Assembly: GCF_964355755.1 (NCBI RefSeq)
Contig: NC_092675.1
Location: forward strand, 14,232,912 to 14,296,911
DNA from: Antedon mediterranea
Lineage: Eukaryota; Animalia; Echinodermata
Direction: 5' to 3'
Length of the DNA: 64,000 bases
A model generated the notes under the pieces. That model made no database searches, had not been told where the DNA came from, and saw only the letters and a program-made list of their open reading frames with translations. The position numbers and the translations under genes were made by a program. Of this stretch, positions 6,001-64,000 are shown piece after piece; position 1 is the first letter of the stretch; each line of letters begins with the position of its first letter.

Positions 6001-6676
6001 AGCATTTCGACAAAACTTTTTCACACAAAACACCAAAGTGCTTAGAATAGCTTCAAATCGCATTTGGAGACGTTTTAGACCATTTTGTGATTTTCGAAAA
6101 AACTTGTTAACATAAAAACACCAAAGTGCTTAGAATAGCGTCAAATCGTATTTGGAGACGTTTTAGACCATTTTGTGATTTTCGAAAAAACTTGTTAACA
6201 TAAAAACACCAAAGTGCTTAGAATAGCTTCAAATCGCATTTGGAGACGTTTTAGACCATTTTGTGCATTTCGATGAAACTTGGTTACACAAAAACATCAA
6301 AGTGCTTAAAATCACATTATAAATCGTTTTAGACCATTTTGAGCATTTCGATAAAACTTTTTCACACAAAACACCAAAGTGCTTAGAATAGCTTCAAATC
6401 GCATTTGGAGACGTTTTAGACCATTTTGTGAATTTTGAAAAAACTTGTTAACATAAAAACACCAAAGTACTTAGAATAGCTTCAAATCGCATTTGGAGAC
6501 GTTTTAGACCATTTTGTGATTTTCGAAAAAACTTTTTAACATAAAAACATCAAAGTGTACAGAATAGCTTCAAATCGCATTTGGAGACGTTTTAGACCAA
6601 TTTGTGATTTTCGAAAAAACTTATTAACATAAAAATACCAAAGTGTTTAGAATAGCTTAAAATCGCATTTGGAGAC
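1..6676. repeat. Tandem satellite array, ~88-bp monomer with 78/87-bp variants (block 1)
   Basis: Head-to-tail copies of TTTTGTGATTTTCGAAAAAACTTGTTAACATAAAAACACCAAAGTGCTTAGAATAGCTTCAAATCGCATTTGGAGACGTTTTAGACCA (88 bp, e.g. 1-88 with one substitution), interleaved with a 78-bp variant (89-166) and 87-bp variants (167-253). Confidence 0.99.
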
Positions 6677-7606
6677 CACAGTTGTTTCAACTAGTGTTAA
6701 GATATCAGAAAAAGTCAAGCGCCCTCAGTGTTAGCAGACGAGGCTCCCCCGAGTCGCGCGGACATATAATTTTTGTTTACAAACCATTACTTCGCGAACG
6801 CCAAATTAAATTTCGCTATCGTGAGTTTTTATGTAGTAAAAACCTTTTATACAAAACTAAACGATTAAAAAAAGTGTATGTTCAATTAAAAAATAAATAT
6901 TTTATTGTTTCTTTACTATAAATTAATAAATAAACGACGATATTGTCCATTTTACTGAAATACTCTCCTGCACATAAACCAGGAAGTTGAGATAAATTGT
7001 GTAATGAAATAGTAAGCAATCGTAAGTAGAAAATATCATTGTATTCTTTACTTTTTTTGTGGATATAATTCATTTTTTTAGAAAAAGAACGAACTAGAAT
7101 ATAGTCCATCATTATTATATAAACAAAATAATACTAGTTTTGTTAATATAGCCTGGTTCAGTTTTTAGTAAAACTCGCATATTTTGCAACCCTTTTATAC
7201 ATTGTTATTGTTATCGGCGAGAAAACGGTTTGGCGATAGGCTTAGAAAGTTTGTTGACGCCCGCGATGACCGTGACAGTAATGTGGGCCTAGAATGAAGC
7301 TAGGCCGAAAGATAGAAAATTCGTAATAGTTAAACCTTTAATTACCATAATCCTAAATGTAATCATTATAACTGTTACCAAATAATTAATGGCATGTGTT
7401 TATAATAATAATTATTGCTTTCCTGGTGCATTTTTAGGCTAGCTGGTGGGACTGAGTGACAGTCACAGCCTAGGCTAGGCCTTAATATTAATACATTTTT
7501 ACAGCATACTAATGGTTTAATATTTTGGCTATTAGCTCTCTTGTTTGGATTTGTTTGTACACAAAACTGAAGTACTGTAGATTTAAAAATTGATTTATTT
7601 TTAAAG

Positions 7607-8794
7607 GAAAGTACAGTTGCATCTATTGTTTTTGTAATCAAGATGACATCAGAACCAACAATGTTCCTCAAGCCTGTAGATATCTCAAGGCCTACAAGTC
7701 TTTTGTAGACCATGGCAGTGAACAAAAAGAAGCAAAACAATATCGCACAGCGTTGTTAGACCATACCTGGTAGACATTGAATTAAACAGGGTAGGTAAAT
7801 AATCATAACCACCTCTTTAGAAAGTTTAATACACACTCCAAACAATGAAATGTGTGTTTGTACTTCATATTATTTATTAAAGAACAATGTTAGTATAAAA
7901 TAACTGTCGAAACAAACAATTGTTACAGTAATTTATAAATATACCTCTTTTCTTTATTAAATATTCCCTCAATCAACTATTTTTCCAGGTGTCAATATGT
8001 TATAATATTCAACATGGGACAGGATGCTGACATCTTGACTGGTAAATTCAAATGTTGTTTCAACTTTACATTGACATTACATAATAACTCAATTGGTCAA
8101 GTTGCTCTTTAAATATACATTGTCCCTTTGAGCATAGAATTTCAAAATTGTTTATCCTATTTTTATGCATAATAAAGCAAACCTTTGGCTGGAACTTATT
8201 TTCCTATGAATTATCCATATATTATCATTATCTGCTACAAGAAATAGTTGTTGATTGACATTTATTTGGTTGACCAATATTGTTTAATCGCAGGTGATCA
8301 TCTAGCAGAAAGAGAAAATCAGAAGCTGCAGCACATTGACATGCTACAAAGTACAATGATTAAAATCCAGTCTTTAGAAGAGAATCTTGAGCATTTAAGA
8401 AATGAACTCTCAGTGTCACTTGTGACAAAACAGCATAGTAAGATTGCAGAGACTGGCCACAGAATAAATCTAAAAGAACAAGAGGTCAAAGACTTGGTCA
8501 GTCCTACATTATACACCTTTAAAATTATGTCTAAAACATGCAAATACTATAAAAATTAATGCCATATTTCTTTTATATATTTTATATAGCGAACTACTAT
8601 GAACCAAGAGATTTGAAACTGGACCTCTATGTACAAAAATGGACGAGGTATTTAGAAAAAATAAATTCCTCGACAGCAGTACCATGGAAAAAGTTTTGTG
8701 GGAAATCATGAAGTCACATCTGACGTTTATTTCACCTGAGATCCAGCATGAAGTAACTAGGCCGGTAACTAAGTGGAGAAAAGTTGAGGAATAG
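7607..8794 (+). pseudogene. Decayed, intron-containing Chapaev/Transib/RAG1-core-like DDE transposase (C-terminal half)
   Basis: Exon-like segments with AG/GT boundaries. 7607-7790: GKYSCIYCFCNQDDIRT...YKSFVDHGSEQKEAKQY, frameshift, HSVVRPYLVDIELNR. 7989-8041: VSICYNIQHG/QDADILT. 8294-8496: coiled-coil GDHLAERENQKLQ...EQEVKDL, the core of ORF 8248..8559. 8590-8794: FETGPLCTKMDEVFRKNK, frameshift, PRQQYHGKSFVGNH, then IMKSHLTFISPEIQHEVTRPVTKWRKVEE*. Intron phases 0/1/0 are mutually consistent. Several frameshifts and a large deletion are present. Confidence 0.8.
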
Positions 8795-8952
8795 TTTGCT
8801 ATTTCTCAGTTAATTGTTACAGTATTGCATATTATTATGTACAGTATACTGTATGAATGGTAGTATTTTTGTGTGTTATTGCTAGAACAATGATTTTGAA
8901 AATATTTAACAAATGGTATATGAATTGTAATTGAATTTAATTTTTTGGAAGC

Positions 8953-9862
8953 TATTTAATTTTAATTTGGTTTATATATATTATTGATTGATAACGGAAA
9001 TTGATGTTATTTAGTGATTTAGATTGTGATTGCATATATAATACAATACAAATATGAAAGAAATATGCATTTATAATTAAATATCTAATGTCGCAGTACT
9101 CTATAGCTTCTTTCTATTAATATATTACAGATCTTTGACTAAGACATGCTAGGTAGGCTGCTAGTCTTTAACCTGCTGATGATGTAGCCTAGCCTATATA
9201 GTATAGGCCTAGCTAGGCCTGTAACCTGGCCTACTCTGTACTCCTCTCTCCCAATATGAATGATTATTAAAAAAGCTTAGGCCTAGGCTAGGCCTAATTT
9301 TTAATTAGGACCAGGAACAAGTAATTAATCAGCTTTATAACAGGTCAACTGTCACTCAGGCCCCCGAATAGACATGTTTACGTGTTAAAAATAAACAGTT
9401 ATTTTATTTTAATTTGGTTTATATATTAATAATTATTTATTGATAACGGAAATTGATGTTATTTACTGATTTAGATTGTGATTGCATATCAAAATAATAA
9501 AAATACAATACAAATATGAAAGAAATATGCATTTATGATTAAATATCTAATGTCAAAGTACTCTATAGCTTCTTTCTATTAATATATTACAGATCTTTGA
9601 CTAAGACATGCTAGGTAGGCTGCTAGCCTTTAACCTGCTGATGATGTAGCCTAGCCTATTATATAATATAGGCCTAGCTAGGCCTGTAGCCTGGCCTACT
9701 CTGTACTTCTCTCCCAATATGAATGATTATTAAAAAAGCTTAGGCCTAGACTAGGCCTAATTTTTAATTAGGACCAGGAACAAGTAATTAATCAGCTTTA
9801 TAACAGGTCAACTGTCACTCAGGCCCTCCGAATATACATGTTTACGTGTTAAAAATAAACAG
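8953..9862. repeat. Direct tandem duplication (~450 bp x 2) inside element 1
   Basis: About 8953-9398 and about 9400-9862 share long near-identical stretches (GATAACGGAAATTGATGTTATT...CAGATCTTTGACTAAGACATGCTAGGTAGGCTGC...CATGTTTACGTGTTAAAAATAAACAG) with a few SNPs and indels. Confidence 0.95.
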
Positions 9863-10129
9863 CCATTAGTCTTACACAGCTGGTTTTAACCACGCAAGGG
9901 AGCCTGGGCATAGCCTATTATAAGCTAGCATAGGAAAAAATCCAGCCAGGCAATATGAATACGATGCTTGTTAAAACATTCAAGGATAACTAAAGTATCC
10001 AACTAAATCAAAGAATTCAACAGAAAAAATTATTTTTAAACTGATATGGAAAACAACATTTATACCTACTTTTTTAAATGTATCGCTTGAGAAAAAAACT
10101 GGCGTTGGGTGTACAATTTTCAATTACAT

Positions 10130-10250
10130 TACCTCTTAAAATCCACGTGATAAAACGACGACCACATGTTTTTCACCTTCATCCAGAGTTGTTCTAATGA
10201 ATATTCATTATTTTTCTGACTTTCGCGGTCTTTATTTGTTTTTATTGGCT
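10130..10250 (-). promoter_or_regulatory. Putative inward-facing promoter module of element 1 (CCAAT + ATGAATATTCAT palindrome + downstream splice donor)
   Basis: ATTGG at 10244-10248 (CCAAT on -), 16-bp palindrome TAATGAATATTCATTA at 10195-10210, and AG|GTAATG donor at 10132 on -. The module recurs at the same offset in elements 3 and 4. Confidence 0.55.
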
Positions 10251-10394
10251 ATTAAAAACAGTCGTTTTATGCTTGATTGCTTCCGGGTTTCCTCATGTGG
10301 TTTGTATACAATATGTTTTCGGAATCGCTACTCCATAAAACGCTATGAAACGTTGGGGGCGCTGCACTTAATTCATATTTCTGGAACAGCTGTG

Positions 10395-13300
10395 AGACGT
10401 TTTAGACCATTTTGTGATTTTCGAAAAAACTTGTTAACATAAAAACACCAAAGTGCTTAGAATAATTTCAAATCGCATTTGGAGACGTTTTAGACCATTT
10501 TGTGATTTTTGAAAAAACTTGTTAACATAAAAACACCAAAGTGCTTAGAATAGCTTCAAATCGTATTTGGAGACGTTTTAGACCATTTTGTGATTTTCGA
10601 AAAAACTTGTTAACATAAAAACACCAAAGTGCTTAGAATTGCTTCAAATCGCATTTGGAGACGTTTTAGACCATTTTGTGCATTTCGATGAAACTTGGTT
10701 ACACAAAAACATCAAAGTGCTTAAAATCACATTATAAACCATTTTAGACCATTTTGAGCATTTCGATAACACTTTTCACACAAAAACATCAAAGAGCACA
10801 AAATAGCTTAATATCGTATTTAAAAACGTTTTAGACCATTTTGAGCATTTCGACAAAACTTTTTCACACAAAACACCAAAGTGCTTAGAATAGCTTCAAA
10901 TCGCATTTGGAGACGTTTTAGACCATTTTGTGATTTTCGAAAAAACTTGTTAACATAAAAACATCAAAGTGTACAGAATAACTTCAAATCGCATTTGGAG
11001 ACCGTTTTAGGCCAATTTGTGATTTTCGAAAAAACTTGTTAACCTAAAAATACCAAAGTGTTTAGAATAGCTTCAAATAGCATTTGGAGACGTTTTAGAC
11101 CATTTTGTGATTTTCGAAAAAACTTGTTAACATAAAAACACCAAAGTGCTTAGAATAGCTTCAAATCGCATTTGGAGACATTCTAGACCAATTTGTGATT
11201 TTTGAAAAAACTTGTTAACAAAAAAACACCAAAGTGCTTACAATAGCTTCAAATCGTATTTGGAGACGTTTTAGACCATTTTGTGATTTTCGAAAAAACT
11301 TGTTAACATAAAAACACCAAAGTACTTAGAATAGCTTCAAATCGCATTTGGAGACGTTTTAGACCATTTTGTGCATTTCGATGAAACTTGGTTACACAAA
11401 AACATCAAAGTGCTTAAAATCACATTATAAACCGTTTTAGACCATTTGAGCATTTCGATAACACTTTTAACACAAAAACATCAAAGAGCACAAAATAGCT
11501 TATTATCGTATTTAAAAACGTTTTAGACCATTTTGAGCATTTCGACAAAACTTTTTCACACAAAACACCAAAGTGCTTAGAATAGCTTCAAATCGCATTT
11601 GGAGACGTTTTAGACCAATTTGTGCATTTCAATGAAACTTGGTTACACAAAAACATCAAAGTGCTTAAAATCACATTATAAATCGTTTTAGACCATTTTG
11701 AGCATTTTGATAACACTTTTCACACAAAAACATCAAAGAGCACAAAATAGCTTAATATCGTATTTAAAAACGTTTTAGACCATTTTGAGCATTTCGACAA
11801 AACTTGTTAACATAAAAACACCAAAGTGCTTAGAATAGCGTCAAATCGTATTTGGAGACGTTTTAGACCATTTTGTGATTTTCGAAAAAACTTGTTAACA
11901 TAAAAACACCAAAGTGCTTAGAATAGCTTCAAATCGCATTTGGAGACGTTTTAGACCATTTTGTGCATTTCGATGAAACTTGGTTACACAAAAACATCAA
12001 AGTGCTTAAAATCACATTATAAATCGTTTTAGATCATTTTGTGCATTTCGACAAAACTTTTTTCACACAAAATACCAAAGTGCATAGAATAGCTTCAAAT
12101 CGCATTTGGAGACGTTTTAGACCATTTTGTGATTTTCGAAAAAACTTTTTAACATAAAAACACCAAAGTTCTTAGAATAGCTTAAAATCACATTTGGAGA
12201 CGTTTTAGACCATTTTGTGATTTTCGAAAAAACTTGTTAACATAAAAACACGAAAGTGCTTAGAATAGCTTCAAATCGCATTTGGAAGCGTTTTAGACCA
12301 TTTTGTGATTTTCGAAAAAAATTGTTAACATAAAAACACCAAAGTGCTTAGAATCACATTATAAACCGTTTTAGACCATTTTGAGCATTTCGATAACACT
12401 TTTCACACAAAAACATTAAAGAGCACAAAATAGCTTAATATCGTATTTAAAAACGTTTTAGACCATTTTGAGCATTTAGACAAAACTTTTTCAAACAAAA
12501 CACCAAAGTGCTTAGAATAGCTTCAAATCGCATTTGGAGACGTTTTAGAACATTTTGTGTTTTTCGAAAAAAACTGTTAACATAAAAACACCAAAGTGCT
12601 TAGAATAGCTTCAAATCGCATTTGGAGACGTTTTAGAACATTTTGTGTTTTTCGAAAAAACCTGTTAACATAAAAACACCAAAGTGCTTAGAATAGCTTC
12701 AAATCGCATTTGGAGACGCATTAAACCATTTTCTGATTTTTTGAAAAAACTTGTTAACATAAAAACACCAAAGTGCTTAGAATAGCTTCAAATCACATTT
12801 GGAGACTTTTTAGACCATTTTGTGATTTTCGAAAAAACTTGTTAACATAAAAACACCAAAGTGCTTAGAATAGCGTCAAATCGTATTTGGAGACGTTTTA
12901 GACCATTTTGTGATTTTCGAAAAAACTTGTTAACATAAAAACACCAAAGTGCTTAGAATAGCTTCAAATCGCATTTGGAGACGTTTTAGACCATTTTGTG
13001 TTTTTCGAAAAAACTTGGTTACACAAAAACATCAAAGTGCTTAAAATCACATTATAAACCGTTTTAGACCATTTTGAGCATTTCGATAACACTTTTCACA
13101 CAAAAACATCATAGAGCACAAAATAGCTTAATATCGTATTTAAAAACGTTTTAGACCATTTTGAGCATTTCGACAAAACTTGTTAACATAAAAACACCAA
13201 AGTGCTTAGAATGGCTTCAATCGCATTTGGAGACGCTTTAGACCATTTTGTGATTTTCGAAAAAAATTGTTAACATAAAAACACCAAAGTGCTTAGAATC

Positions 13301-16300: not shown

Positions 16301-17978
16301 AATATCGTATTTAAAAATGTTTTAGACCATTTTGAGCATTTAGATAAAACTTTTTCACACAAAACACCAAAGTGCTTAGAATAGCTTCAAATCGCATTTG
16401 GAGACGGTTTAGAACATTTTGTGATTTTGAAAAAACTTGTTAACATAAAAACACCAAAGTGCTTAGAATAGCTTCAAATCGCATTTGGAGACGTTTTAGA
16501 CCATTTTGTGATTTTCGAAAAAACTTGTTAACATAAAAACACCAAAGTGCTTAGAATAGCTTCAAATCACATTATAAACCGTTTTAGACCATTTTGAGCA
16601 TTTCGATAACACTTTTCACACAAAAACATGAAAGAGCACAAAATAGCTTAATATCGTATTTAAAAACGTTTTAGACCATTTTGAGCATTTAGACAAAACT
16701 TTTTCACACAAAACACCAAAGTGCTTAGAATAGCTTCAAATCGCATTTGGAGACGTTTTAGACCATTTTGTGCATTTCGATGAAACTTGGTTACACAAAA
16801 ACATCAAAGTTCTTAAAATCACATTATAAATCGTTTTAGACCATTTTGAGCATTTCGACAAAACTTTTTCACACAAAATACCAAAGTGCTTAGAATAGCT
16901 TCAAATCGCATTTGGAGACGTTTTAGACCATTTTGTGATTTTCGAAAAAACTTGTTAACATAAAAACACCAAAGTGTTTAGAATAGCTTCAAATCGCATT
17001 TGGAGACGTTTTAGACCAATTTGTGATTTTCGAAAAAACTTATCAACATAAAAACACCAAAGGGTTTAGAATAGCTTCAAATCGCATTTTGAGACGTTTT
17101 AGACCATTTTGTGATTTTCGAAAAAACTTGTTAACATAAAAACACGAAAGTGCTTAGAATAGCTTCAAATCGCATTTGGAAACGTTTTAGACCATTTTGT
17201 GATTTTCGAAAAAACTTGTTAACATAAAAACACGAAAGTGCTTAGAATAGCTTCAAATCGCATTTGGAAACGTTTTAGACCATTTTGTGATTTTCGAAAA
17301 AAATTGTTAACATAAAAACACCAAAGTGCTTAGAATCACATTATAAACCGTTTTAGACCATTTTGAGCATTTCGATAACACTTTTCACACAAAAACATCA
17401 AAGAGCACAAAATAGCTTAATATCGTATTTAAAAACGTTTTAGACCATTTTGAGCATTTCGACAAAACTTTTTCACACAAAACACCAAAGTGCTTAGAAT
17501 AGCTTCAAATCGCATTTGGAGACGTTTTAGACCATTTTGTGATTTTCGAAAAAACTTGTTAACATAAAAACATCAAAGTGTACAGAATAACTTCAAATCG
17601 CATTTGGAGACCGTTTTAGGCCAATTTGTGATTTTCGAAAAAACTTGTTAACCTAATAATACCAAAGTGTTTAGAATAGCTTCAAATCGCATTTAGAGAT
17701 GTTTTAGACCATTTTGTGATTTTCGAAAAAACTTGTTAACATAAAAACACCAAAGTGCTTAGAATAGCTTCAAATTGCATTTGGAGACATTTTAGACCAA
17801 TTTGTGATTTTTGAAAAAACTTGTTAACATAAAAACACCAAAGTGCTTACAATAGCTTCAAATCGTATTTGGAGACGTTTTAGACCATTTTGTGATTTTC
17901 GAAAAAACTTGTTAACATAAAAACACCAAAGTACTTAGAATAGCTTCAAATCGCATTTGGAGACGTTTTAGACCATTT
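10395..17978. repeat. Satellite array (block 2)
   Basis: Same monomer family and orientation as block 1; resumes in register after the TSD. Confidence 0.99.
14078..17970. repeat. 1987-bp tandem block duplication (higher-order repeat) within the satellite
   Basis: Rare variants recur exactly 1987 bp apart: GAGACTATTT (14078/16065), CACCAATGTG (14220/16207), ACCTAATAATAC (15670/17657), CAAATTGCAT (15789/17776). Confidence 0.9.
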
Positions 17979-19951
17979 GTGACCCGATCTGGCAAAACCC
18001 TCTCTTTGTCGGCAATTCAAAATTCACGTAATCAGTCAAAATACGTCCAAATCGACTACCCTGGCAGATTACATGTTTTTGCATTTTCGAAATATTTCAC
18101 TATCTAAGAATACGTCTACCTGATTTAAACTCCCGAAATTTAACTAAAATTATGAAAAAAGAGAGTTTTAAAAACATGTATTTTCCTCAAGCCTAACAAT
18201 TTATTCACGATCTACGCTAAAATTTTGCGTAAATTCAGTTGAAAGTTGCCGAGTTTTACGACATTTTGATCGCCAGTTCGCTGCACAATGTTGAAAGGTC
18301 ACACATCAAAATAAAGCTCATCCATTTGACATTCCAAATATGGAAGTTTTAGGGCGGAGTTTAAAGAAGGAACCAATGAAAACTTTGATTTACTATGACA
18401 TCATTTCAGAAAATTCGGTTCTTCGAAGTTTCTGGAACAGCGAACTGCGTGTGTTGCTATGGCGCATCATCGCAATAACAAACGTTATTGGTCAACGCGC
18501 TAGATGTTATACGCTCTACGCGCGGAAATAAAAAGTTGTTTACATTTTTGTGAGGTTATTTTTATTTTACACACAGCATGTCGTAAATTGGAATAAAAAC
18601 GATTTTAATATTCAAAGTAAAGTGTTCTGCAATAGCTGTAGTGTGTATTTGTTTATTCCATAGTAAAATAGACAAGTCAAAAACAATTCACGTCATAAAT
18701 TCAATTGTATTTTCTATATTTTTTTGGGCTAGTAGGCCCTAGGCCTAATTTTATTATGGTTGTAGGCCTACTACTACTGGGCCTAGCTTTATATTATTGT
18801 CAATAGTTTTATTTATACATTTTATATATCCAATCGGCTCTTAATTATTTATTTAATTTATTATCCATTCCTTTCATATTAAATGTTTTTTTAAATCATT
18901 GGATTCAAGCCCAAACATCACAGCGAATCTTCCACGTTATAAAAAAAAACAAATGTAATCGTCAATACAGTGTAATGTTAGCTTGCAATTAGCTGTGACT
19001 CTGCAAGGCGCCTAACTTGTCTAGACTAACGCTAGCCCCCGTGTCGATGCACCGCTGCCATACACGGCCTGATGAACACCCATCATCAGTAGGTCTTAAT
19101 GCACTTGTCAATTGTATGACCCACTATACGACCCCCGGGAGAGGTGCGTCATTTGTCCGATGTGCGTCATACTTTTGAATACCATGACGCACCCGTGCGT
19201 CAAAAAGGTGACTTACCTTTAGGTGACCATGACGCACCCATTTTGACGCACTGTGACCATGTTGTTTATGATATGGTGGGTGGTAAAGTGACGGACATTG
19301 ACACACCTTGTTCATTGATGTGACGTACCATCTAGGTTTTTTTGACGCACCCCTGCGTCAGTAATTATTTGTAAATGATGCACCCATGACGCACCTCTCC
19401 CGGGGGTCGTATAGTGAGTCATACAATTGACAAGTGCATAATACAGGCGATGACGGCGAAAATCTGAATAGGCGCGCCTAGGCCTAGGCCTGCTTGGTTT
19501 TTTGCCGTTGATATCGTAAACACTTCCGAAACCAGTTAACATTAGCTTGGTAGTTATAATGCTGCTTTTCAATAGTGCAAAATAGTTAATTCGAGTGACT
19601 AAATAGGTTAAAACGGCGTCTGAAATCAGTCAAATTGACCATAGTGTCCACGCTGCTGCTATATCGCACACACTTCCTGGAATTACGTCATTGTGCCTAA
19701 ATAGCGCGTTGCTACGGAGTGAGTTTTCAGCGCGTATCAAAAAGAATTTCATTGCAAACTTCAAACGCGATTTTCTCGTAAACTAATTGAATGATTTGTA
19801 AGTTTTTAAAATATAATAACTTTTTAAATATTTACTCAATTTTTTTGAAATAAATACCATTGCAAAGCTTATGATTCAAATAATCCAAATATATAAAAAA
19901 ATACAAAATGAATATTTCCGACAAAAGTAGGGTTTTGCCAGATCGGGTCAC
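17979..19951. mobile_element. Non-autonomous TIR DNA transposon, Sola1-like, 1.97 kb (element 2)
   Basis: TIR GTGACCCGATCTGGCAAAACCCT is 23 bp perfect and extends to ~34 bp with TTTGTCGG. Flanked by ATTT/ATTT (17975-17978, 19952-19955), fitting the 4-bp AWWT target of Sola1. An alternative reading is TGTGAC..GTCACA with a TT duplication. No transposase is recognisable. Confidence 0.8.
19100..19438. mobile_element. 339-bp MITE nested in element 2 (PIF/Harbinger-like 3-bp TSD)
   Basis: 53-bp TIRs TGCACTTGTCAATTGTATGAC(C/T)CACTATACGACCCCCGGGAGAGGTGCGTCAT with one mismatch (19100-19152 and 19386-19438), flanked by TAA/TAA. The interior has repeated TGACGCA/TGCGTCA motifs. Confidence 0.88.
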
Positions 19952-22900
19952 ATTTTGTGATTTTCGAAAAAACTTGGTTACACAAAAACATCAAAGTGCT
20001 TAAAATCACATTATAAACCGTTTTAGACCATTTTGAGCATTTCGATAACACTTTTCACACAAAAACATCATAGAGCACAAAATAGCTTAATATCGTATTT
20101 AAAAACGTTTTAGACCATTTTGAGCATTTCGACTAAACTTGTTAACATAAAAACACCAAAGTGCTTAGAATGGCTTCAATCGCATTTGGAGACGCTTTAG
20201 ACCATTTTTGTGATTTTCGAAAAAAATTGTTAACATAAAAACACCAAAGTGCTTAGAATCACATTATAAACCGTTTTAGACCATTTTGAGCATTTCGATA
20301 ACAATTTTCACACAAAAACATCAAAGAGCACAAAATAGCTTAATATCGTATTTAAAAATGTTTTAGACCATTTTGAGCATTTAGAAAAAACTTTTTCACA
20401 CAAAACACCAAAGTGCTTAGAATAGCTTCAAATCGTATTTGGAGACGTTTTAGACCATTTTGAGATTTTCGAAAAAACTTGGTTACACAAAAACATCAAA
20501 GTGCTTAAAATCACATTATAAACCGTTTTAGGACATTTTGAGCATTTCGATAACACTTTTCACACAAAAACATCAAAGAGCACAAAATAGCTTAATATCG
20601 TATTTAAAAACGTTTTAGACCATTTTGAGCATTTCGACAAAACTTTTTCACACAAAACACCAAAGTGCTTAGAATAGCTTCAAATCGCATTTGGAGACGT
20701 TTTAGACCAATTTGTGCATTTCGATGAAACTTGGTTACACAAAAACATCAAAGTGCTTAAAATCACAATATAAATCGTTTTAGACCATTTTGAGCATTTC
20801 GATAACACTTTTCACACAAAAACATAAAAGAGCACAAAATAGCTTAATATCTTATTTAAAAACGTTTTAGACCATTTTGAGCATTTAGACAAAACTTTTT
20901 CACACAAAACACCAAAGTGCTTAGAATAGCTTCAAATCGCATTTGGAGACGTTTTAGACCATTTTGTGATTTTCAAAAAAACTTGTTAACATAAAAACAC
21001 CAAAGTGCTTAGAATAGCTTCAAATCGTATTTGGAGACGTTTTAGACCATTTTGTGATTTTCGAAAAAACTTGTTAACATAAAAACACCAAAGTGCTTAG
21101 AATAGCTTCAAATCGCATTTGGAGACATTTTAGACCAATTTGTGATTTTCGAAAAAAACTTGTCAACATAAAAACACCAAAGTGTTTAGAATAGCTTCAA
21201 ATCGCATTTGGAGACGTTTTAGACCAATTTGTGATTTTCGAAAAAACTTATCAACATAAAAACACCAAAGGGTTTAGAATAGCTTCAAATCGCATTTTGA
21301 GACGTTTTAGACCATTTTGTGATTTTCGAAAAAACTTGTTAACATAAAAACACGAAAGTGCTTAGAATAGCTTCAAATCGCATTTGGAAACGTTTTAGAC
21401 CATTTTGTGATTTTCGAAAAAACTTGTGAACATAAAAACACGAAAGTGCTTAGAATAGCTTCAAATCGCATTTGGAAACGTTTTAGACCATTTTGTGATT
21501 TTCGAAAAAAATTGTTAACATAAAAACACCAAAGTGCTTAGAATCACATTATAAACCGTTTTAGACCATTTTGAGCATTTCGATAACAATTTTCACACAA
21601 AAACATCAAAGAGCACAAAATAGCTTAATATCGTATTTAAAAATGTTTTAGACCATTTTGAGCATTTGGATAAAACTTTTTCACACAAAACACCAAAGTG
21701 CTTAGAATAGCTTCAAATCGCATTTGGAGACGTTTTAGACCATTTTGTGATTTTTGAAAAAAATTGTTAACATAAAAACACCAAAGTGCTTAGAATAGCT
21801 TCAAATCACATTTGTAGACGTTTTAGACCATTTTGTGATTTTCGAAAAAACTTGTTAACATAAAAACACGAAAGTGCTTAGAATAGCTTCAAATCGCATT
21901 TGGAAACGTTTTAGACCATTTTGTGATTTTCGAAAAAACTTGTTAACATAAAAACACCAAAGTGCTTAGAATAGCTTCAAATCGCATTTGGAAACGTTTT
22001 AGACCATTTTGTGATTTTCGAAAAAAATTGTTAACATAAAAACACCAAAGTGCTTAGAATCACATTATAAACCGTTTTAGACCATTTTGAGCATTTCGAT
22101 AACAATTTTCACACAAAAACATCAAAGAGCAAAAAATAGCTTAATATCGTATTTAAAAATGTTTTAGACCATTTTGAGCATTTGGATAAAACTTTTTCAC
22201 ACAAAACACCAAAGTGCTTAGAATAGCTTCAAATCGCATTTGGAGACGTGTTAGACCATTTTGTGATTTTTGAAAAAACTTGTTAACATAAAAACACCAA
22301 AGTGCTTAGAATAGCTTCAAATCACATTTGGAGACGTTTTAGACCATTTTGTGATTTTCGAAAAAACTTAACATAAAAACACGAAAGTGCTTAGAATAGC
22401 TTCAAATCGCATTTGGAAACGTTTTAGACCATTTTGTGATTTTCGAAAAAACTTGTTAACATAAAAACACCAAAGTGCTTAGAATAGCTTCAAATCGCAT
22501 TTGGAAACGTTTTAGACCATTTTGTGATTTTCGAAAAAAATTGTTAACATAAAAACACCAAAGTGCTTAGAATCACATTATAAACCGTTTTAGACCATTT
22601 TGAGCTTTTCGATAACAATTTTCACACAAAAACATCAAAGAGCACAAAATAGCTTAATATCGTATTTAAAAATGTTTTAGACCATTTTGAGAATTAGATA
22701 AAACTTTTTCACACAAAACACCAAAGTGCTTAGAATAGCTTCAAATCGCATTTGGAGACGTTTTAGACCATTTTGTGATTTTTGAAAAAACTTGTTAACA
22801 TAAAAACACCAAAGTGCTTAGAATAGCTTCAAATCACATTTGGAGAGGTTTTAGACCATTTTGTGATTTTTGAAAAAACTTGTTAACATAAAAACACGAA

Positions 22901-35185: not shown

Positions 35186-35319
35186 CACGGCTGTTTCAGA
35201 GCGACATAAAGTAGTGAGCCCTCTATCGGTAAAAGTTAAATATTTTCGAAATTGAGAGCGCTATACAAACGCGGAAACGATTTGTTTTTATTTAGCGAAA
35301 ATAATTACATCATATTTAA

Positions 35320-35448
35320 TCAACGAATCAGAAGCCTTTGGTTGTTGAAATCGTTGAGATTTCTTATGAATATTCATTAGGAATGTCCTGGTTGTTGTGG
35401 GAATCGATTTTGAGACACGAAGCTTGAATACTTTGGTCGTGGTGAGTA
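35320..35448 (+). promoter_or_regulatory. Putative inward-facing promoter module of element 3
   Basis: AACGAATCAG (degenerate CCAAT box) at about 35322, ATGAATATTCAT at 35366-35377, and TG|GTGAGT donor at 35442. Confidence 0.5.
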
Positions 35449-36065
35449 GTTGAAATAATGAGATATTTTAATAGTTTTTTTGTTGCTTTTTGTTATGATT
35501 ACGGCAAAAATTGCACCACGTGTCTGTTGAATTTTTTAAAGAACCAAAATAAACATTTTTGGGTACTTAAATAGTTGTTGAACCTCTAGAATTAAAATAG
35601 TTTTAACGGCAGATCTAGGCCCAGTTTACCACTCATTCAAAGTTTCATGGCTAAACCCACGTGTTTTACGTAGGTGGGTGGGCTTTAAACACACTAGAGC
35701 CTATACTCGGGGGACTGTTGTATCTAGTTACTATGGCCAGGATCTGTTAATTAAATAAGTTCAGGCTTTTGGTGTTCAAGAAAAATAAAAGATTTCTATT
35801 TATAATAATATACAGGCCTAGAAGCGTACTTAACAATAATTAATACATTTATTGAGCCTATATGGTACGATACGAGGTCTATATAGGTACATACTATAGA
35901 GTAGCGCCATATATTATATAGACATCGACTCAAGACTTGGCCTATTTATGTCTTGATTTATAGTCGACAAAGGCAAGGCAAAATCAATATTTTTTTTATT
36001 TTTCCATCACGCATGTTGACCCCTTGTATGCATATTCCAGCACCATCACTGCTTGCGAATTATTA

Positions 36066-36274
36066 TTATAGCGTGCTTAAAATATTTATTAGTTTCAATT
36101 GATTGCGTACAATTTTTTTTATAGGATGAAAACCTTTATTCCTTGGACGTGTGACTTCACTTGACCTTTCACGAATGATTGCAAACTCAAAATGGAACTG
36201 TTTTATCAACTGGTGTTCATGCTTCCAATTACTAATCCATTCATAGAAGAAAGTTCCAATGAAGTCAATAGTGA
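36066..36274 (-). pseudogene. Internally deleted last-exon remnant of the same transposase type
   Basis: After a TTTTCAG acceptor on -, the open frame reads TIDFIGTFFYEWISNWKHEHQLIKQFHFEFAIIRERSSEVTRPRNKGFHP. EVTRP is shared with the C-terminus in element 1, and WxxxW...QxxxxxHxEF resembles the region around the catalytic Glu. Confidence 0.45.
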
Positions 36275-36668
36275 CTGAAAATAGACACGAGACCGGACAT
36301 ATTTCGACTTTAGTTCATCGAATTATGTAAATTTATCTAAGAAAAGATTTACGTTAAAATATAAATATTAATATTTTGAAGCTAATCTAGATTGTGATGA
36401 CATTTTATAATTATTGTTGTAGGCCTATTGTTTTTTAGTTTTAACACAAAATATTAAATTATATTTTTATTAGACTAGAGTAAATATATTATATAAAGTG
36501 ATAATATGTAATTTAAAATATACAATCAACTGGATATTGAATCAATGTTTTTGTTATTTCCAAGTCTACATCTACTTAGTATCATGCTTATCAGCCTAGG
36601 CCCATTATCTATATAAATATAGGGACATACATAGTATAGGTATACTGATACTGTACTTGATGCCTAAA

Positions 36669-37150
36669 CAATTCATTCATTCATTCAGATAATATTTATT
36701 TAGATAATAATGAATGAATATATACAAAATAGAAAAAAGATATTAAAGTGAACATAGATAAAGCAGTAATTGGTAGTCATTATTATCATGGATCCCTTCT
36801 AGAAGTTAAAAACTTGTCTCGTAGGGACCCACAACAAAACACATTACTAAAAAATTAAAAATAACCTAGAATATATAATTATATAATTTAGGATAAAAAA
36901 TTACAGTATAATAACGTAACTAACATCTTCTTTATAAAAATTATTTAAATTATATTTCAATAGTTTCATGATAATTATAAATGAAATAACTACCGATATT
37001 GGTAAATGAAAAAAAAAAAAATATGTATACATAAATTATAATTCCAGTATATATATAGTATATACTATATATACATTATATATAGTATAGATTAAAGATT
37101 CCAATAATAAACAACAACTAATATTTTGTGTAAGACATAAATAGTAAATT
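36669..37150 (-). mobile_element. Possible decayed 3' end of a CR1/L2-clade LINE nested in element 3
   Basis: On -: YYWNL / HLPISV...MKLLKYNLNNFY-like terminal RT motif, a stem-loop GGGTCCCT...ACAAG...CTT...AGGGATCC (about 36789-36830), then AATAAA and a (TGAA)n tail (ATTCATTCATTCATTCA at about 36671-36687 on +). Boundaries are approximate. Confidence 0.4.
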
Positions 37151-37942
37151 AATTTCTATTATAAATAAGTCTAGCCATAAATTTCCTAAAAAATATGGCA
37201 TGTTACAAATTGTAATAATAATGAAAATAAGTATAAGACCTACTTTTATGTTCAAAACACAATTTTTGTATGTAGGCCTAATTAACAAAATGTAGGCCTA
37301 CTTCACTACTATTACTAGCCTAGGTAGGCTACTGTGACCGTGTAAGTCCACCCACCAAGCCTATCAGACCTACACAGTAGGCCTAAGAATCACAAATTGA
37401 TTAAAATAGCCATTTTATATGCTTAATTTTAACATAGTTGCAGGTTTGCCGTTAAACTGGGATTTTGCAGGTTGATAACTAAATAGTTTAAGATTACTAT
37501 TTTCTTAACAAATCTCCGAAAAAAAATTCGACGGACGAACGAGAAGACGATAAATCTGACGAAATTTCTGCCGTAAATTGAGGGCGCTTTAAATATTAAT
37601 TTCGTCGATTGTTTTGTATTGCAAGGCCTTCAAAAAAGTAGCGATATTTTTATCTACAAACACAAATTTCGTAATATGTTTATTATTTTATGTTCTTGAA
37701 AACTTAGTAAAACAAATAATATCAACAATATTAGACATTTTATTAATTATTTTAGAATTCCATGTATAAATATAAAAGCATTATTATGCATTAAGGAAGT
37801 AAACGAACTATGCAGCGTTGCTAAGTATCGGCGGTGCATGGAAACAATGAAAAAGTGTTCGAGAACACGCGGCTAGCGAATAAAAGGAAAAGCGCGTTGT
37901 AAACACTTAGTGTCGCGCATTACGTGCATTGAAACAGCCGTG

Positions 37943-61838: not shown

Positions 61839-61979
61839 CACAGCTGTTTCAAACATACGAATTAAGTCATGCGCCCTCAACGTTACAAGTCGTATCGCTG
61901 GAGTAACAATACATAAACAATTACTTACAAATCCACGTGTGCAGAGTGGAGTCAAACGTCATTTAAAGACATGTTTTAA

Positions 61980-62143
61980 ACAGCCAATGAGAATGAGATA
62001 AAAAAATAAAGGGTCGCTAAAAATATGAATATTCATTAAAGAGTCCCTGGATGAAACAAGCATGTTGTCGTTTTCAGTCGGGCAGCAAAGTGGTTGACCT
62101 CGCGAATTTTTACCAAATCAAAATTTGAATTGCCGCCATCTTG
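61980..62143 (+). promoter_or_regulatory. Putative inward-facing promoter module of element 4
   Basis: AGCCAATGAG (CCAAT at 61984-61988), ATGAATATTCAT at 62025-62036, and YY1-consensus GCCGCCATCTTG at 62132-62143. Confidence 0.55.
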
Positions 62144-62613
62144 GAATCGCGATAAAGCAAGTAGTGCGGAATTACAAAATGCAGCAAAAACATTTTCAAT
62201 AACATTTAAATAGCATATTCATACAATTAAATTTATATTAATAAAATTCAACTAAGGAGTTTACGAAAGATAGGCTACTTTAGAAATACTGCCGAGATCG
62301 GTTCCCCCACACGGCGTAGGGTACCGCAGTGCTAAGGGGCCTAGGTAGGAAAAAATCTGATTTTACCTGTTAAACATGCTTGAACCAAGGCCATTTTAAT
62401 ATATATTATCCAGATTATATATCAAAACAAACTGATAAAAGGATTTGTTGATTTGCTTCTGATGAGAAAAGTGCCGGATTCATTTCGCTGACGGCGAATG
62501 AATACACGAATTTTCGCCATTTTCTAGCACTAGCCTTGGGTACCCAGACAGCTGATAACGATTATATTCGATTGTCCAGACGTCTCTGCTACTGGTGCTC
62601 AATACTACAGTAT

Positions 62614-62647
62614 GTATTACCATGGACCTATAGGTCCATGGTATTAC
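62614..62647. repeat. 20-bp perfect palindrome flanked by a 7-bp direct repeat (probable transposon excision footprint)
   Basis: GTATTAC | CATGGACCTATAGGTCCATG | GTATTAC. Confidence 0.75.
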
Positions 62648-63943
62648 TGTACATATAGTACTGTATGTTTAGTTTTTGCTTTCTTTATGGAAAAATAAAT
62701 ATTTAATTTTTATTATTGCTTATTTTCCTTTAACTTTATCCAAGAAGAAGTACATATTATATATATGCATATTACAGTCAAGTTGCAACTGCCACGAATC
62801 CACTCCACTTTGGTTACTAACTAAATAATTAATAGTATAACATCATAACTAACAAACAAATTAACAAGTTAATAAATTAACCACCATTAAATAATTTTAT
62901 TTACACAAAAGTATTTTACATACAGTATAACATGTAATATCTTGTTTACATCGAAGTAAAATATGCCTATCAAACTATCTTGCTCAGGCTAAAATATCAA
63001 GTTATATATGTCAATATTTGAGTTAAATCATCGCGATAATAAAAATGTTTATTTTTTTTTTATTTTTAAAGACATCTGTTACGTACATCAATTTACAAAT
63101 ATCAAAATAGGATTGTTTTTGCAGCACAAGATGAATCACAAGTCGGATAGTTTATTCTTAGAAACCTGAAAGAAAAAAAAACCAATAATGAGCTATTCAT
63201 AGTTAAATAATTTTAATGTCAACTTTAGTCATCCTAAATTTTGTCGCCATGATCACTACTATACTGTATATATAAATATCATACTATGTACGACCATCCA
63301 AATTACCTAATCCTACCTACAGTCCTTCCTAGCCTAGGCTACATTATTGTCATTATATATTTACAAACCTCCAACATCCACAACATATTTTCTTTTCTTT
63401 GGCAAAGAATTTCCCGTAATATAGTCCTAAATTAATTAAATAAATTAAAAGGTCAAGGCCTAGGACTTTCTTTAAATATCCGACGATATATATCCATAAT
63501 TCAGTGGATATAGATTCAACATTTTAAACATAATATGGCTTCACATTGATTATAATAAGTCGGCGATATGCCACTAAAAACTAGCCTGCGGCCCTCTCTC
63601 TATCCCTCTACAAATAACACTGGGTTTCTGTCAAATGGGCTAGGCCTAGCCTAGGCCTAGATAATACAACAAGTTGGGTACATTTTTTTACAACCAAATA
63701 ATCTACAATTATATTGCAATATTTACCAAACTAGCACCAAATCTAAAATAATAAAGCTACTAATAACATATTTTGGTATATTAACTGGTTTAAAAACGGA
63801 TTGCACATAGTGATTTTGAAGGATTGAAATTACTCAACCACACGGCCTGTACTAAACATACGAATCCAAGATGGAGTCTGCTTAGAATATATCCCCAGCT
63901 TTGAACGGATATTGAATCCGTCCCACAAGCTGAACCAAGCTTA

Positions 63944-64000
63944 GGCCCTGTTCAGACCCATGGCGTTAGACCGTTTTAGCGTACGACGCTAAAAGAATGT
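63944..64000. mobile_element. Possible start of a PIF/Harbinger-type MITE (truncated by the window)
   Basis: TTA followed by GGCCCTGTTCAGAC resembles a TWA target plus a Harbinger terminus. The other end is not visible. Confidence 0.3.

What the first reader, a model, noticed from the sequence alone, without database searches (positions are those of the whole stretch)
6677..10394. RSS-like asymmetric ends: inner block offset by one helical turn (12 vs 22 bp spacer) in a Chapaev-like transposon
Seen: both ends of element 1 consist of a 13-bp CACAG(T/C)TGTT(T/C)CA terminus, a poorly conserved spacer, and a second block AAGTnnnGCGCCCyCAryGTT. The spacer is 22 bp at the left end (AAGT at 6712) and 12 bp at the right end. 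Element 4 reproduces the 12-bp version exactly. The absolute spacer lengths depend on where the blocks are drawn, but the 10-bp difference does not. Established: V(D)J RSSs are CACAGTG plus a 12/23 spacer plus a nonamer, and RAG1 derives from Transib-type transposases with CAC ends. Inference: this 4-bp-TSD family may use a one-turn asymmetric end-pairing rule like RAG, but with a different inner motif.
Basis: partly seen in the sequence, partly recalled or inferred. Interest (0 to 1): 0.85.

Follow-up and report, generated by a model that had tools for sequence, protein, structure and literature searches.

The report
Chapaev-like transposon with long/short ends
This is one copy of a repeated jumping-gene family, without a detectable cutting enzyme, whose two ends carry the same inner DNA motif one helical turn apart (22 versus 12 bases), which likely lets its enzyme pair one long with one short end, as antibody-gene recombination signals and some other transposons do.

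Summary
Element 1 (6677-10394) sits in an 88-bp satellite with a 4-bp target duplication confirmed by empty sites. Its ends share a 13-bp CAC terminus and a 21-bp inner block, offset by 10 bp (p 0.005-0.012). The 22/12 layout recurs in contigs of other samples. Related long ends in two coded organisms keep 21-22 bp although their interiors differ. A dissimilar element (E3) shows a weaker 11-bp offset (p 0.02-0.12).

Limits: no transposase was found, so 'Chapaev' rests on CAC ends plus the 4-bp duplication. Only two elements have both ends in view. Passive inheritance of one old indel is not excluded. Measured from the heptamer, the spacing is 18/28, not 12/23, and there is no RSS nonamer.

One-turn end asymmetry is already published for some Transib, RAG-like elements and the P element. 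My searches found no such report for Chapaev; Repbase and Dfam could not be searched. Verdict: a new variant of a known design. A functional long/short pairing rule is likely (about 0.55) but untested.

The parts
6677..10394 (.). Element 1 (E1): 3718-bp non-autonomous DNA transposon with CAC...GTG ends, inserted in an 88-bp satellite
   Evidence: contigs of other runs begin or end at these boundaries
6673..6676 (+). Left copy of the 4-bp target site duplication (AGAC)
   Evidence: empty site found 152 times exactly
10395..10398 (+). Right copy of the 4-bp target site duplication (AGAC)
6677..6689 (+). Long end: 13-bp terminus
6690..6711 (+). Long end: 22-bp spacer
   Evidence: 21-22 bp in related ends
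6712..6732 (+). Long end: 21-bp inner block (conserved to about 6740 among related long ends); predicted second transposase-binding site
   Evidence: function inferred
10382..10394 (-). Short end: 13-bp terminus
10370..10381 (-). Short end: 12-bp spacer
10349..10369 (-). Short end: 21-bp inner block
7617..8794 (+). Remnant of a spliced gene of unknown family: AG/GT-bounded blocks 7617-7769, 7989-8095, 8294-8496 join in phase to 154 open codons; a fourth block 8590-8794 is out of frame; not recognisable as a transposase
   Evidence: no homologue
8950..9862 (+). Internal tandem duplication of about 460 bp, 93% identical
61839..64000 (+). Element 4 (cut by the window end): short end with 12-bp spacer and inner block at 61864-61884; diverged homologue of E1's short end
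35186..37942 (.). Element 3: same 13-bp terminus type, 4-bp duplication TGCT, interior without similarity to E1. Left end has a weak inner block after 10 bp; a 12-bp block shared by both ends (35201-35212 and 37905-37916) is offset by 11 bp; the right end lacks the GCGCCC motif

Best explanation
E1 is a repeated, non-autonomous cut-and-paste DNA transposon, likely of the Chapaev/CMCT clade, whose two ends carry one inner motif placed one helical turn apart, which likely makes its transposase pair one long with one short end. Shown: the ends, the 10-bp offset, the 4-bp duplication, the recurrence of 22/12 in other samples and of 21-22 bp in related long ends. Inferred: the 13-bp terminus is bound and cut by the catalytic core; the inner block is bound by a second DNA-binding domain; a 10-11-bp difference keeps that block on the same face of the helix, so a hinged, dimeric binding domain could hold one long and one short end together, as the RAG1 nonamer-binding domain does. 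The enzyme would come in trans from an autonomous element not seen here.
For: Offset 10 in E1 (p 0.005-0.012). A contig of another study covers 6677-6968 without gaps; another covers 10092-10394 with its 2 gaps accounted for by listed indels at 10253 and 10288; a contig of a third organism covers 10296-10394 without gaps and leaves into a different flank. Laying the long end on 4 runs gave 24 records: 8 align gaplessly from 6677 across the spacer, one type with 9 mismatches. Three loose-end consensus classes put the terminus 22, 21 and 22 bp from the block, and none at 12. Five unlike continuations follow the block. E3, with no interior similarity to E1, has its best left/right offset at 11 (p 0.022 any offset, 0.003 for offsets of 9-12). 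Precedent in relatives (passages read): Transib 12/23-like ends (PMC1131882), 10-bp asymmetry in PflRAGL-A (bioRxiv 2023.08.20.553239), 13-bp + 4/13 spacer + 10-bp ends in AanRAGL (PMC9435367), and ProtoRAG works better on an asymmetric pair (PMC8289069).
Against: No transposase or homologue for any piece tested. No contig bridges both ends of any other copy, so pairing is seen only in E1 and E3. E3 is weak: p = 0.12 over positions 14-80, its right end scores 0.9 bits on the E1/E4 block profile, and its shared block differs from E1's. Spacer-length conservation alone is weak: at the indel rate between E1-right and E4, a 12-bp spacer stays intact by chance with probability 0.57, and a 22-bp one with 0.36. 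The related long ends share ancestry, and the same types recur across runs, so they are not independent. Short ends of other families were not sampled. RSS-style spacing is 18/28.
Confidence: 0.55

Rival explanations
1. Frozen accident: one 10-bp indel in an ancestral element was inherited by all derived families. The inner block may be bound, but nothing requires unlike ends.
For: E4 is a homologue of E1's short end. Spacers of related ends are still partly alike (9 of 12). Intact spacers are not improbable at the observed indel rate (0.36-0.57). Most Transib families have symmetric ends (PMC1131882, passages).
Against: E3, with an unrelated interior and different spacers, again peaks at 11 bp. 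Long ends with five unlike interiors stay within 21-22 bp.
Confidence: 0.22
2. The elements are Transib or RAG-like (RAGL) elements with an unusual 4-bp duplication, so the asymmetry is the already published one.
For: The terminus matches the RSS heptamer at 5-6 of 7 positions in E1. AanRAGL also has a 13-bp outer block and a 9-bp asymmetry (PMC9435367). Duplication length varies within Transib (3, 5 or 2 bp; bioRxiv 2026.08.26.747230, passages).
Against: Both testable elements have 4-bp duplications, against 5 bp typical of Transib and RAGL (PMC1131882). No A-rich nonamer. No RAG1/RAG2-like piece found.
Confidence: 0.13
3. The inner block is a host-protein site (for example insulator-like or promoter-like), and its spacing reflects helical phasing for that protein, not end pairing.
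For: The GCGCCCTC core resembles a CTCF-type motif (recalled from memory, not tested). A weaker copy lies inside E3 at 37594 (14.6 bits).
Against: In E1 and E4 the three strong copies (34-35 bits) lie only next to termini at fixed distances.
Confidence: 0.1

Closest known systems
Chapaev DNA transposons (CMC/CMCT clade; described in PMC4079192, PMC4411706, PMC12730594, passages read; the 2007 Repbase Reports description was not seen)
   Same: Invariant CAC...GTG termini, short terminal repeat, 4-bp duplication within the stated 3-4-bp range, non-autonomous copies.
   Different: No transposase here to confirm membership. A bipartite end with one-turn asymmetry was not found described for Chapaev in my searches.
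Transib families with RSS12/RSS23-like ends (Transib5, Transib2_AG, TransibN1-3_AG; PMC1131882) and V(D)J RSSs
   Same: CAC terminus, spacer, inner block; the two ends differ by about one turn.
   Different: 5-bp duplication, 7-bp heptamer and A-rich nonamer at 12/23. Here: 4-bp duplication, 13-bp terminus, GC-rich 21-bp block at 18/28 from the heptamer.
RAG-like transposons: PflRAGL-A (10-bp asymmetry, bioRxiv 2023.08.20.553239), AanRAGL (13-bp block, 4/13 spacers, 10-bp block; PMC9435367), ProtoRAG (27/31; PMC8289069)
   Same: Bipartite asymmetric ends; AanRAGL has the same 13-bp outer block length and a 9-bp difference.
   Different: They carry RAG1L and RAG2L genes and make 5-bp duplications; their motifs differ.
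Drosophila P element (PMC7776569, passages)
   Same: Inner transposase site 9 versus 21 bp from the terminal repeat, explicitly likened to 12/23.
   Different: Different superfamily: 31-bp terminal repeats, 8-bp duplication, THAP domain. Shows that such asymmetry is not confined to RAG relatives.

Membership tests
Chapaev | 5'-CAC...GTG-3' termini | tested here: met
   E1 and E3 at both ends, E4 at its one visible end
Chapaev | 3-4-bp target site duplication (PMC4079192) | tested here: met
   4 bp for E1 (AGAC) and E3 (TGCT), confirmed by empty satellite sites
Chapaev | DDE transposase with C(2)C and H(3-4)H motifs and N-terminal Chapa zinc finger | tested here: inconclusive
   No transposase remnant detected in E1, E3 or E4; non-autonomous copies need not carry one; the autonomous partner could not be fetched
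Chapaev | Terminal similarity to curated Chapaev consensus sequences (Repbase/Dfam) | not testable with these tools
   Neither library is available; the terminal motif search in papers gave only unrelated titles among the 40 of 130 listed
Transib / RAGL | 5-bp target site duplication | tested here: not met
   4 bp in 2 of 2 testable elements; exceptions exist in Transib (bioRxiv 2026.08.26.747230)
Transib / RAGL | CAC heptamer plus A-rich nonamer at 12 or 23 bp | tested here: not met
   Heptamer matches 4-6 of 7; inner block is GC-rich and lies 18/28 bp from the heptamer
Transib / RAGL | RAG1-like core (and RAG2-like gene for RAGL) | tested here: inconclusive
   None detected in the pieces tested against Pfam and PDB; element is non-autonomous
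12/23-type pairing rule (works-like claim) | Two end types differing by about one turn, one of each per element | tested here: inconclusive
   Met in E1 (10 bp), weakly in E3 (11 bp); no other element with both ends in view
12/23-type pairing rule (works-like claim) | Cleavage or transposition requires the unlike pair | not testable with these tools
   Needs a biochemical or cell assay

The most novel reading that the evidence does not exclude
Chapaev-type transposases, which share the Chapa and RING domains with RAG1's N-terminal part, obey a one-turn long/short end-pairing rule through a GC-rich inner site unlike the RSS nonamer. The geometry behind the 12/23 rule would then be ancestral to the whole Chapaev-Transib-RAG group and kept while the recognised sequence changed.
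Probability: 0.3. Interest if true: 0.8.

Novelty: new variant of a known kind. Interest (0 to 1): 0.52.

Why it matters
Where the 12/23 rule came from is still debated (a Transib seed versus RAG-like transposons; PMC8355894 and bioRxiv 2023.08.20.553239). One-turn asymmetric ends in the more distant 4-bp-duplication branch would push the geometry back to the common ancestor or show that it arises repeatedly. These high-copy families give natural substrates and, with a full assembly, a direct count of long/short pairs. The value is capped by published precedents in Transib, RAGL and P elements, and by the missing transposase.

Tried and rejected
No whole genome is held, so the copy census could not be run. 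Pattern scans of public collections found no relatives. Metagenomes: 7 loci of 49-59% GC. Prokaryote genomes: 4 loci, none with a partner end of this kind. I take all as chance matches. Protein searches found nothing: Pfam on 14 frames, best E = 0.0005 and below the family cut-off; three homologue searches; two PDB searches; HMMER on 1.84 billion representatives with one 63-aa piece. These are short queries, so the blanks are weak. The ESM Atlas gave no answer. Rfam: 0 matches. No RNA holder was listed; run X3 is only guessed to be RNA, so no expression claim is made. Contig depth was not used as a copy number. Panchin and Moroz 2008 and Yuan and Wessler 2011 were not held. Rejected: that 12 and 22 match RSS 12/23 numerically (18/28 from the heptamer), and that E4 is independent support.

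Full report
Setting. The window is AT-rich (31% GC) and mostly an 88-bp satellite. Masking the satellite leaves four inserts: E1 6677-10394, E2 17978-19952, E3 35186-37942 and E4 from 61839 to the window end. No whole genome is held. GT/AG introns and the satellite point to a eukaryote, probably an animal (inference); I did not try to name it.

Observation. E1's left end has the 13-bp terminus, 22 bp, then AAGT at 6712. Its right end has the terminus, 12 bp, then AAGT at 10369 on the minus strand. E4 has 12 bp. The terminus occurs 5 times in the window against 0.70 expected, always at an insert edge. The two inner blocks of E1 match best at offset 10 (p = 0.012 over positions 14-80; p = 0.0046 over 14-60). 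A profile from the three blocks finds only those three strongly (34-35 bits, by construction); the next hit scores 14.6. The duplication is 4 bp in E1 and E3: removing it restores satellite sites present 152 and 7 times exactly.

Is it a family trait? Fourteen runs from 5 studies hold E1 or part of it, in three coded organisms; sample S1 may be the window's source. I laid 6 of the 14. On the whole element (4 runs), a contig of another study spans 6677-6968 with 4 differences and no gap. Another spans 10092-10394, with two gaps that match indels listed at 10253 and 10288, outside the end. A contig of organism C spans 10296-10394 without gaps and leaves into another flank. So 22/12 is the family's layout, not this copy's accident. 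These tables were cut (102 indel rows and 188 loose ends not shown).

Related long ends. On 6677-6766 (4 runs, 24 records), 8 records align without gaps from 6677 across the spacer, one type with 9 mismatches. Three loose-end consensus classes join at 6707, 6710 and 6698. Counting their letters by hand puts the terminus 22, 21 and 22 bp from the block; for the 21 class the first two letters of the terminus are assumed, as only 30 are shown. Five unlike continuations follow the block, so several families share this end. Selection was on the inner block, not on spacer length, and no 12-bp version appeared. But the same types recur across runs, they share ancestry, two loose ends were not shown, and no record bridges to a partner end.

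E3 and E4. E4's end is a homologue of E1's short end (68% over 241 columns), so it is not independent. With 9 gap openings beyond position 46, a 12-bp spacer would stay intact by chance with probability 0.57. E3 has the same terminus type and no interior similarity to E1. Its left end has a weak block after 10 bp (offset -2 to E4, p = 0.026; 7.8 bits). Its right end has AAGT after 21 bp but no GCGCCC. The best left/right offset is 11 bp, on a different 12-bp block: p = 0.12, 0.022 on the shorter range, or 0.003 if only offsets of 9-12 are allowed. This is suggestive, not firm.

Coding content. No ORF over 126 aa exists in the window. E1 holds three AG/GT-bounded blocks that join in phase to 154 open codons, and a fourth out of frame. 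Pieces gave no significant hit in Pfam, PDB or protein collections. E1 is thus non-autonomous as far as can be told, with an unknown gene remnant.

Mechanism. Shown: bipartite ends, a 10-bp offset, 4-bp duplications, conservation in relatives. Inferred: the terminus is the cut site, the inner block a second binding site, and a one-turn difference lets a hinged dimeric domain hold a long and a short end together. For RAG this is established: the nonamer-binding dimer pivots to take the 12/23 pair (bioRxiv 2023.08.20.553239, passages). I put the functional rule at 0.55, a passively inherited indel at 0.22, a deviant Transib/RAGL at 0.13 and a host-factor site at 0.10.

Comparison. CAC...GTG ends and 3-4-bp duplications are the stated hallmarks of Chapaev (PMC4079192, passages; supplement file 2 passages, file 1 not searchable). 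Chapaev shares the Chapa and RING domains with RAG1 and is distantly related to Transib (PMC4411706, passages; PMC12730594, passages). Membership is likely but unproven, and duplication length is labile in Transib (bioRxiv 2026.08.26.747230, passages). One-turn asymmetry is published for some Transib (PMC1131882, passages; PMC8355894, passages), PflRAGL-A, AanRAGL (PMC9435367, passages and supplement passages) and the P element (PMC7776569, passages). ProtoRAG prefers its asymmetric 27/31 pair (PMC8289069, passages). piggyBat needs unlike ends too (PMC11707139, passages). Measured as an RSS, E1 is 18/28 with no nonamer, so the likeness is in geometry only.

Novelty. A search for Chapaev + asymmetr + terminal inverted repeat + spacer gave 0 papers. 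Chapaev + 4-bp + TIR + RSS + heptamer gave 3 papers; in the passages I read none describes Chapaev end asymmetry. Searches added none by title or passage. PMC3014272, PMC4298943 and PMC6004678 (passages) gave no matching ends. Repbase Reports, Dfam, Panchin and Moroz 2008 and Yuan and Wessler 2011 were not seen, and bioRxiv supplements are closed, so a prior description may exist. Earlier AI notes of this scan report the same idea for Chapaev in two other genomes and for Academ-type elements. I could not test them and do not count them as support; the Academ notes led me to check the P element and to weigh convergence.

Verdict. Real feature, new variant of a known design, mechanism likely but untested. 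Interest 0.52.

Noticed in passing
window 7617-8794 (+): Spliced-gene remnant inside E1: three blocks join in phase to 154 open codons, the third coiled-coil-like; no homologue found. Contigs share 7599-7793 and 8464-8710 and then diverge, so other elements may carry the same exons. It could be a captured host gene or a second gene of the autonomous element.
   Followed up: partly
window 17978-19952: E2, an unrelated element with 39-bp terminal inverted repeats. Boundaries are ambiguous: TGT...ACA with a 2-bp duplication or GTG...CAC with a 4-bp one both restore the satellite. It has an internal 54-bp inverted repeat (19099-19152 / 19386-19439).
   Followed up: partly
window 8950-9862: Tandem duplication of about 460 bp (93%) inside E1.
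   Followed up: no
window 1-64000: 88-bp satellite with longer periods of 428 and 340 bp, hosting four DNA-transposon insertions in 64 kb, three with the same terminus type.
   Followed up: no
window 35209-35229 and 37574-37594: E3's left inner block and an internal site resemble a CTCF-type motif (recalled from memory, not tested).
   Followed up: no
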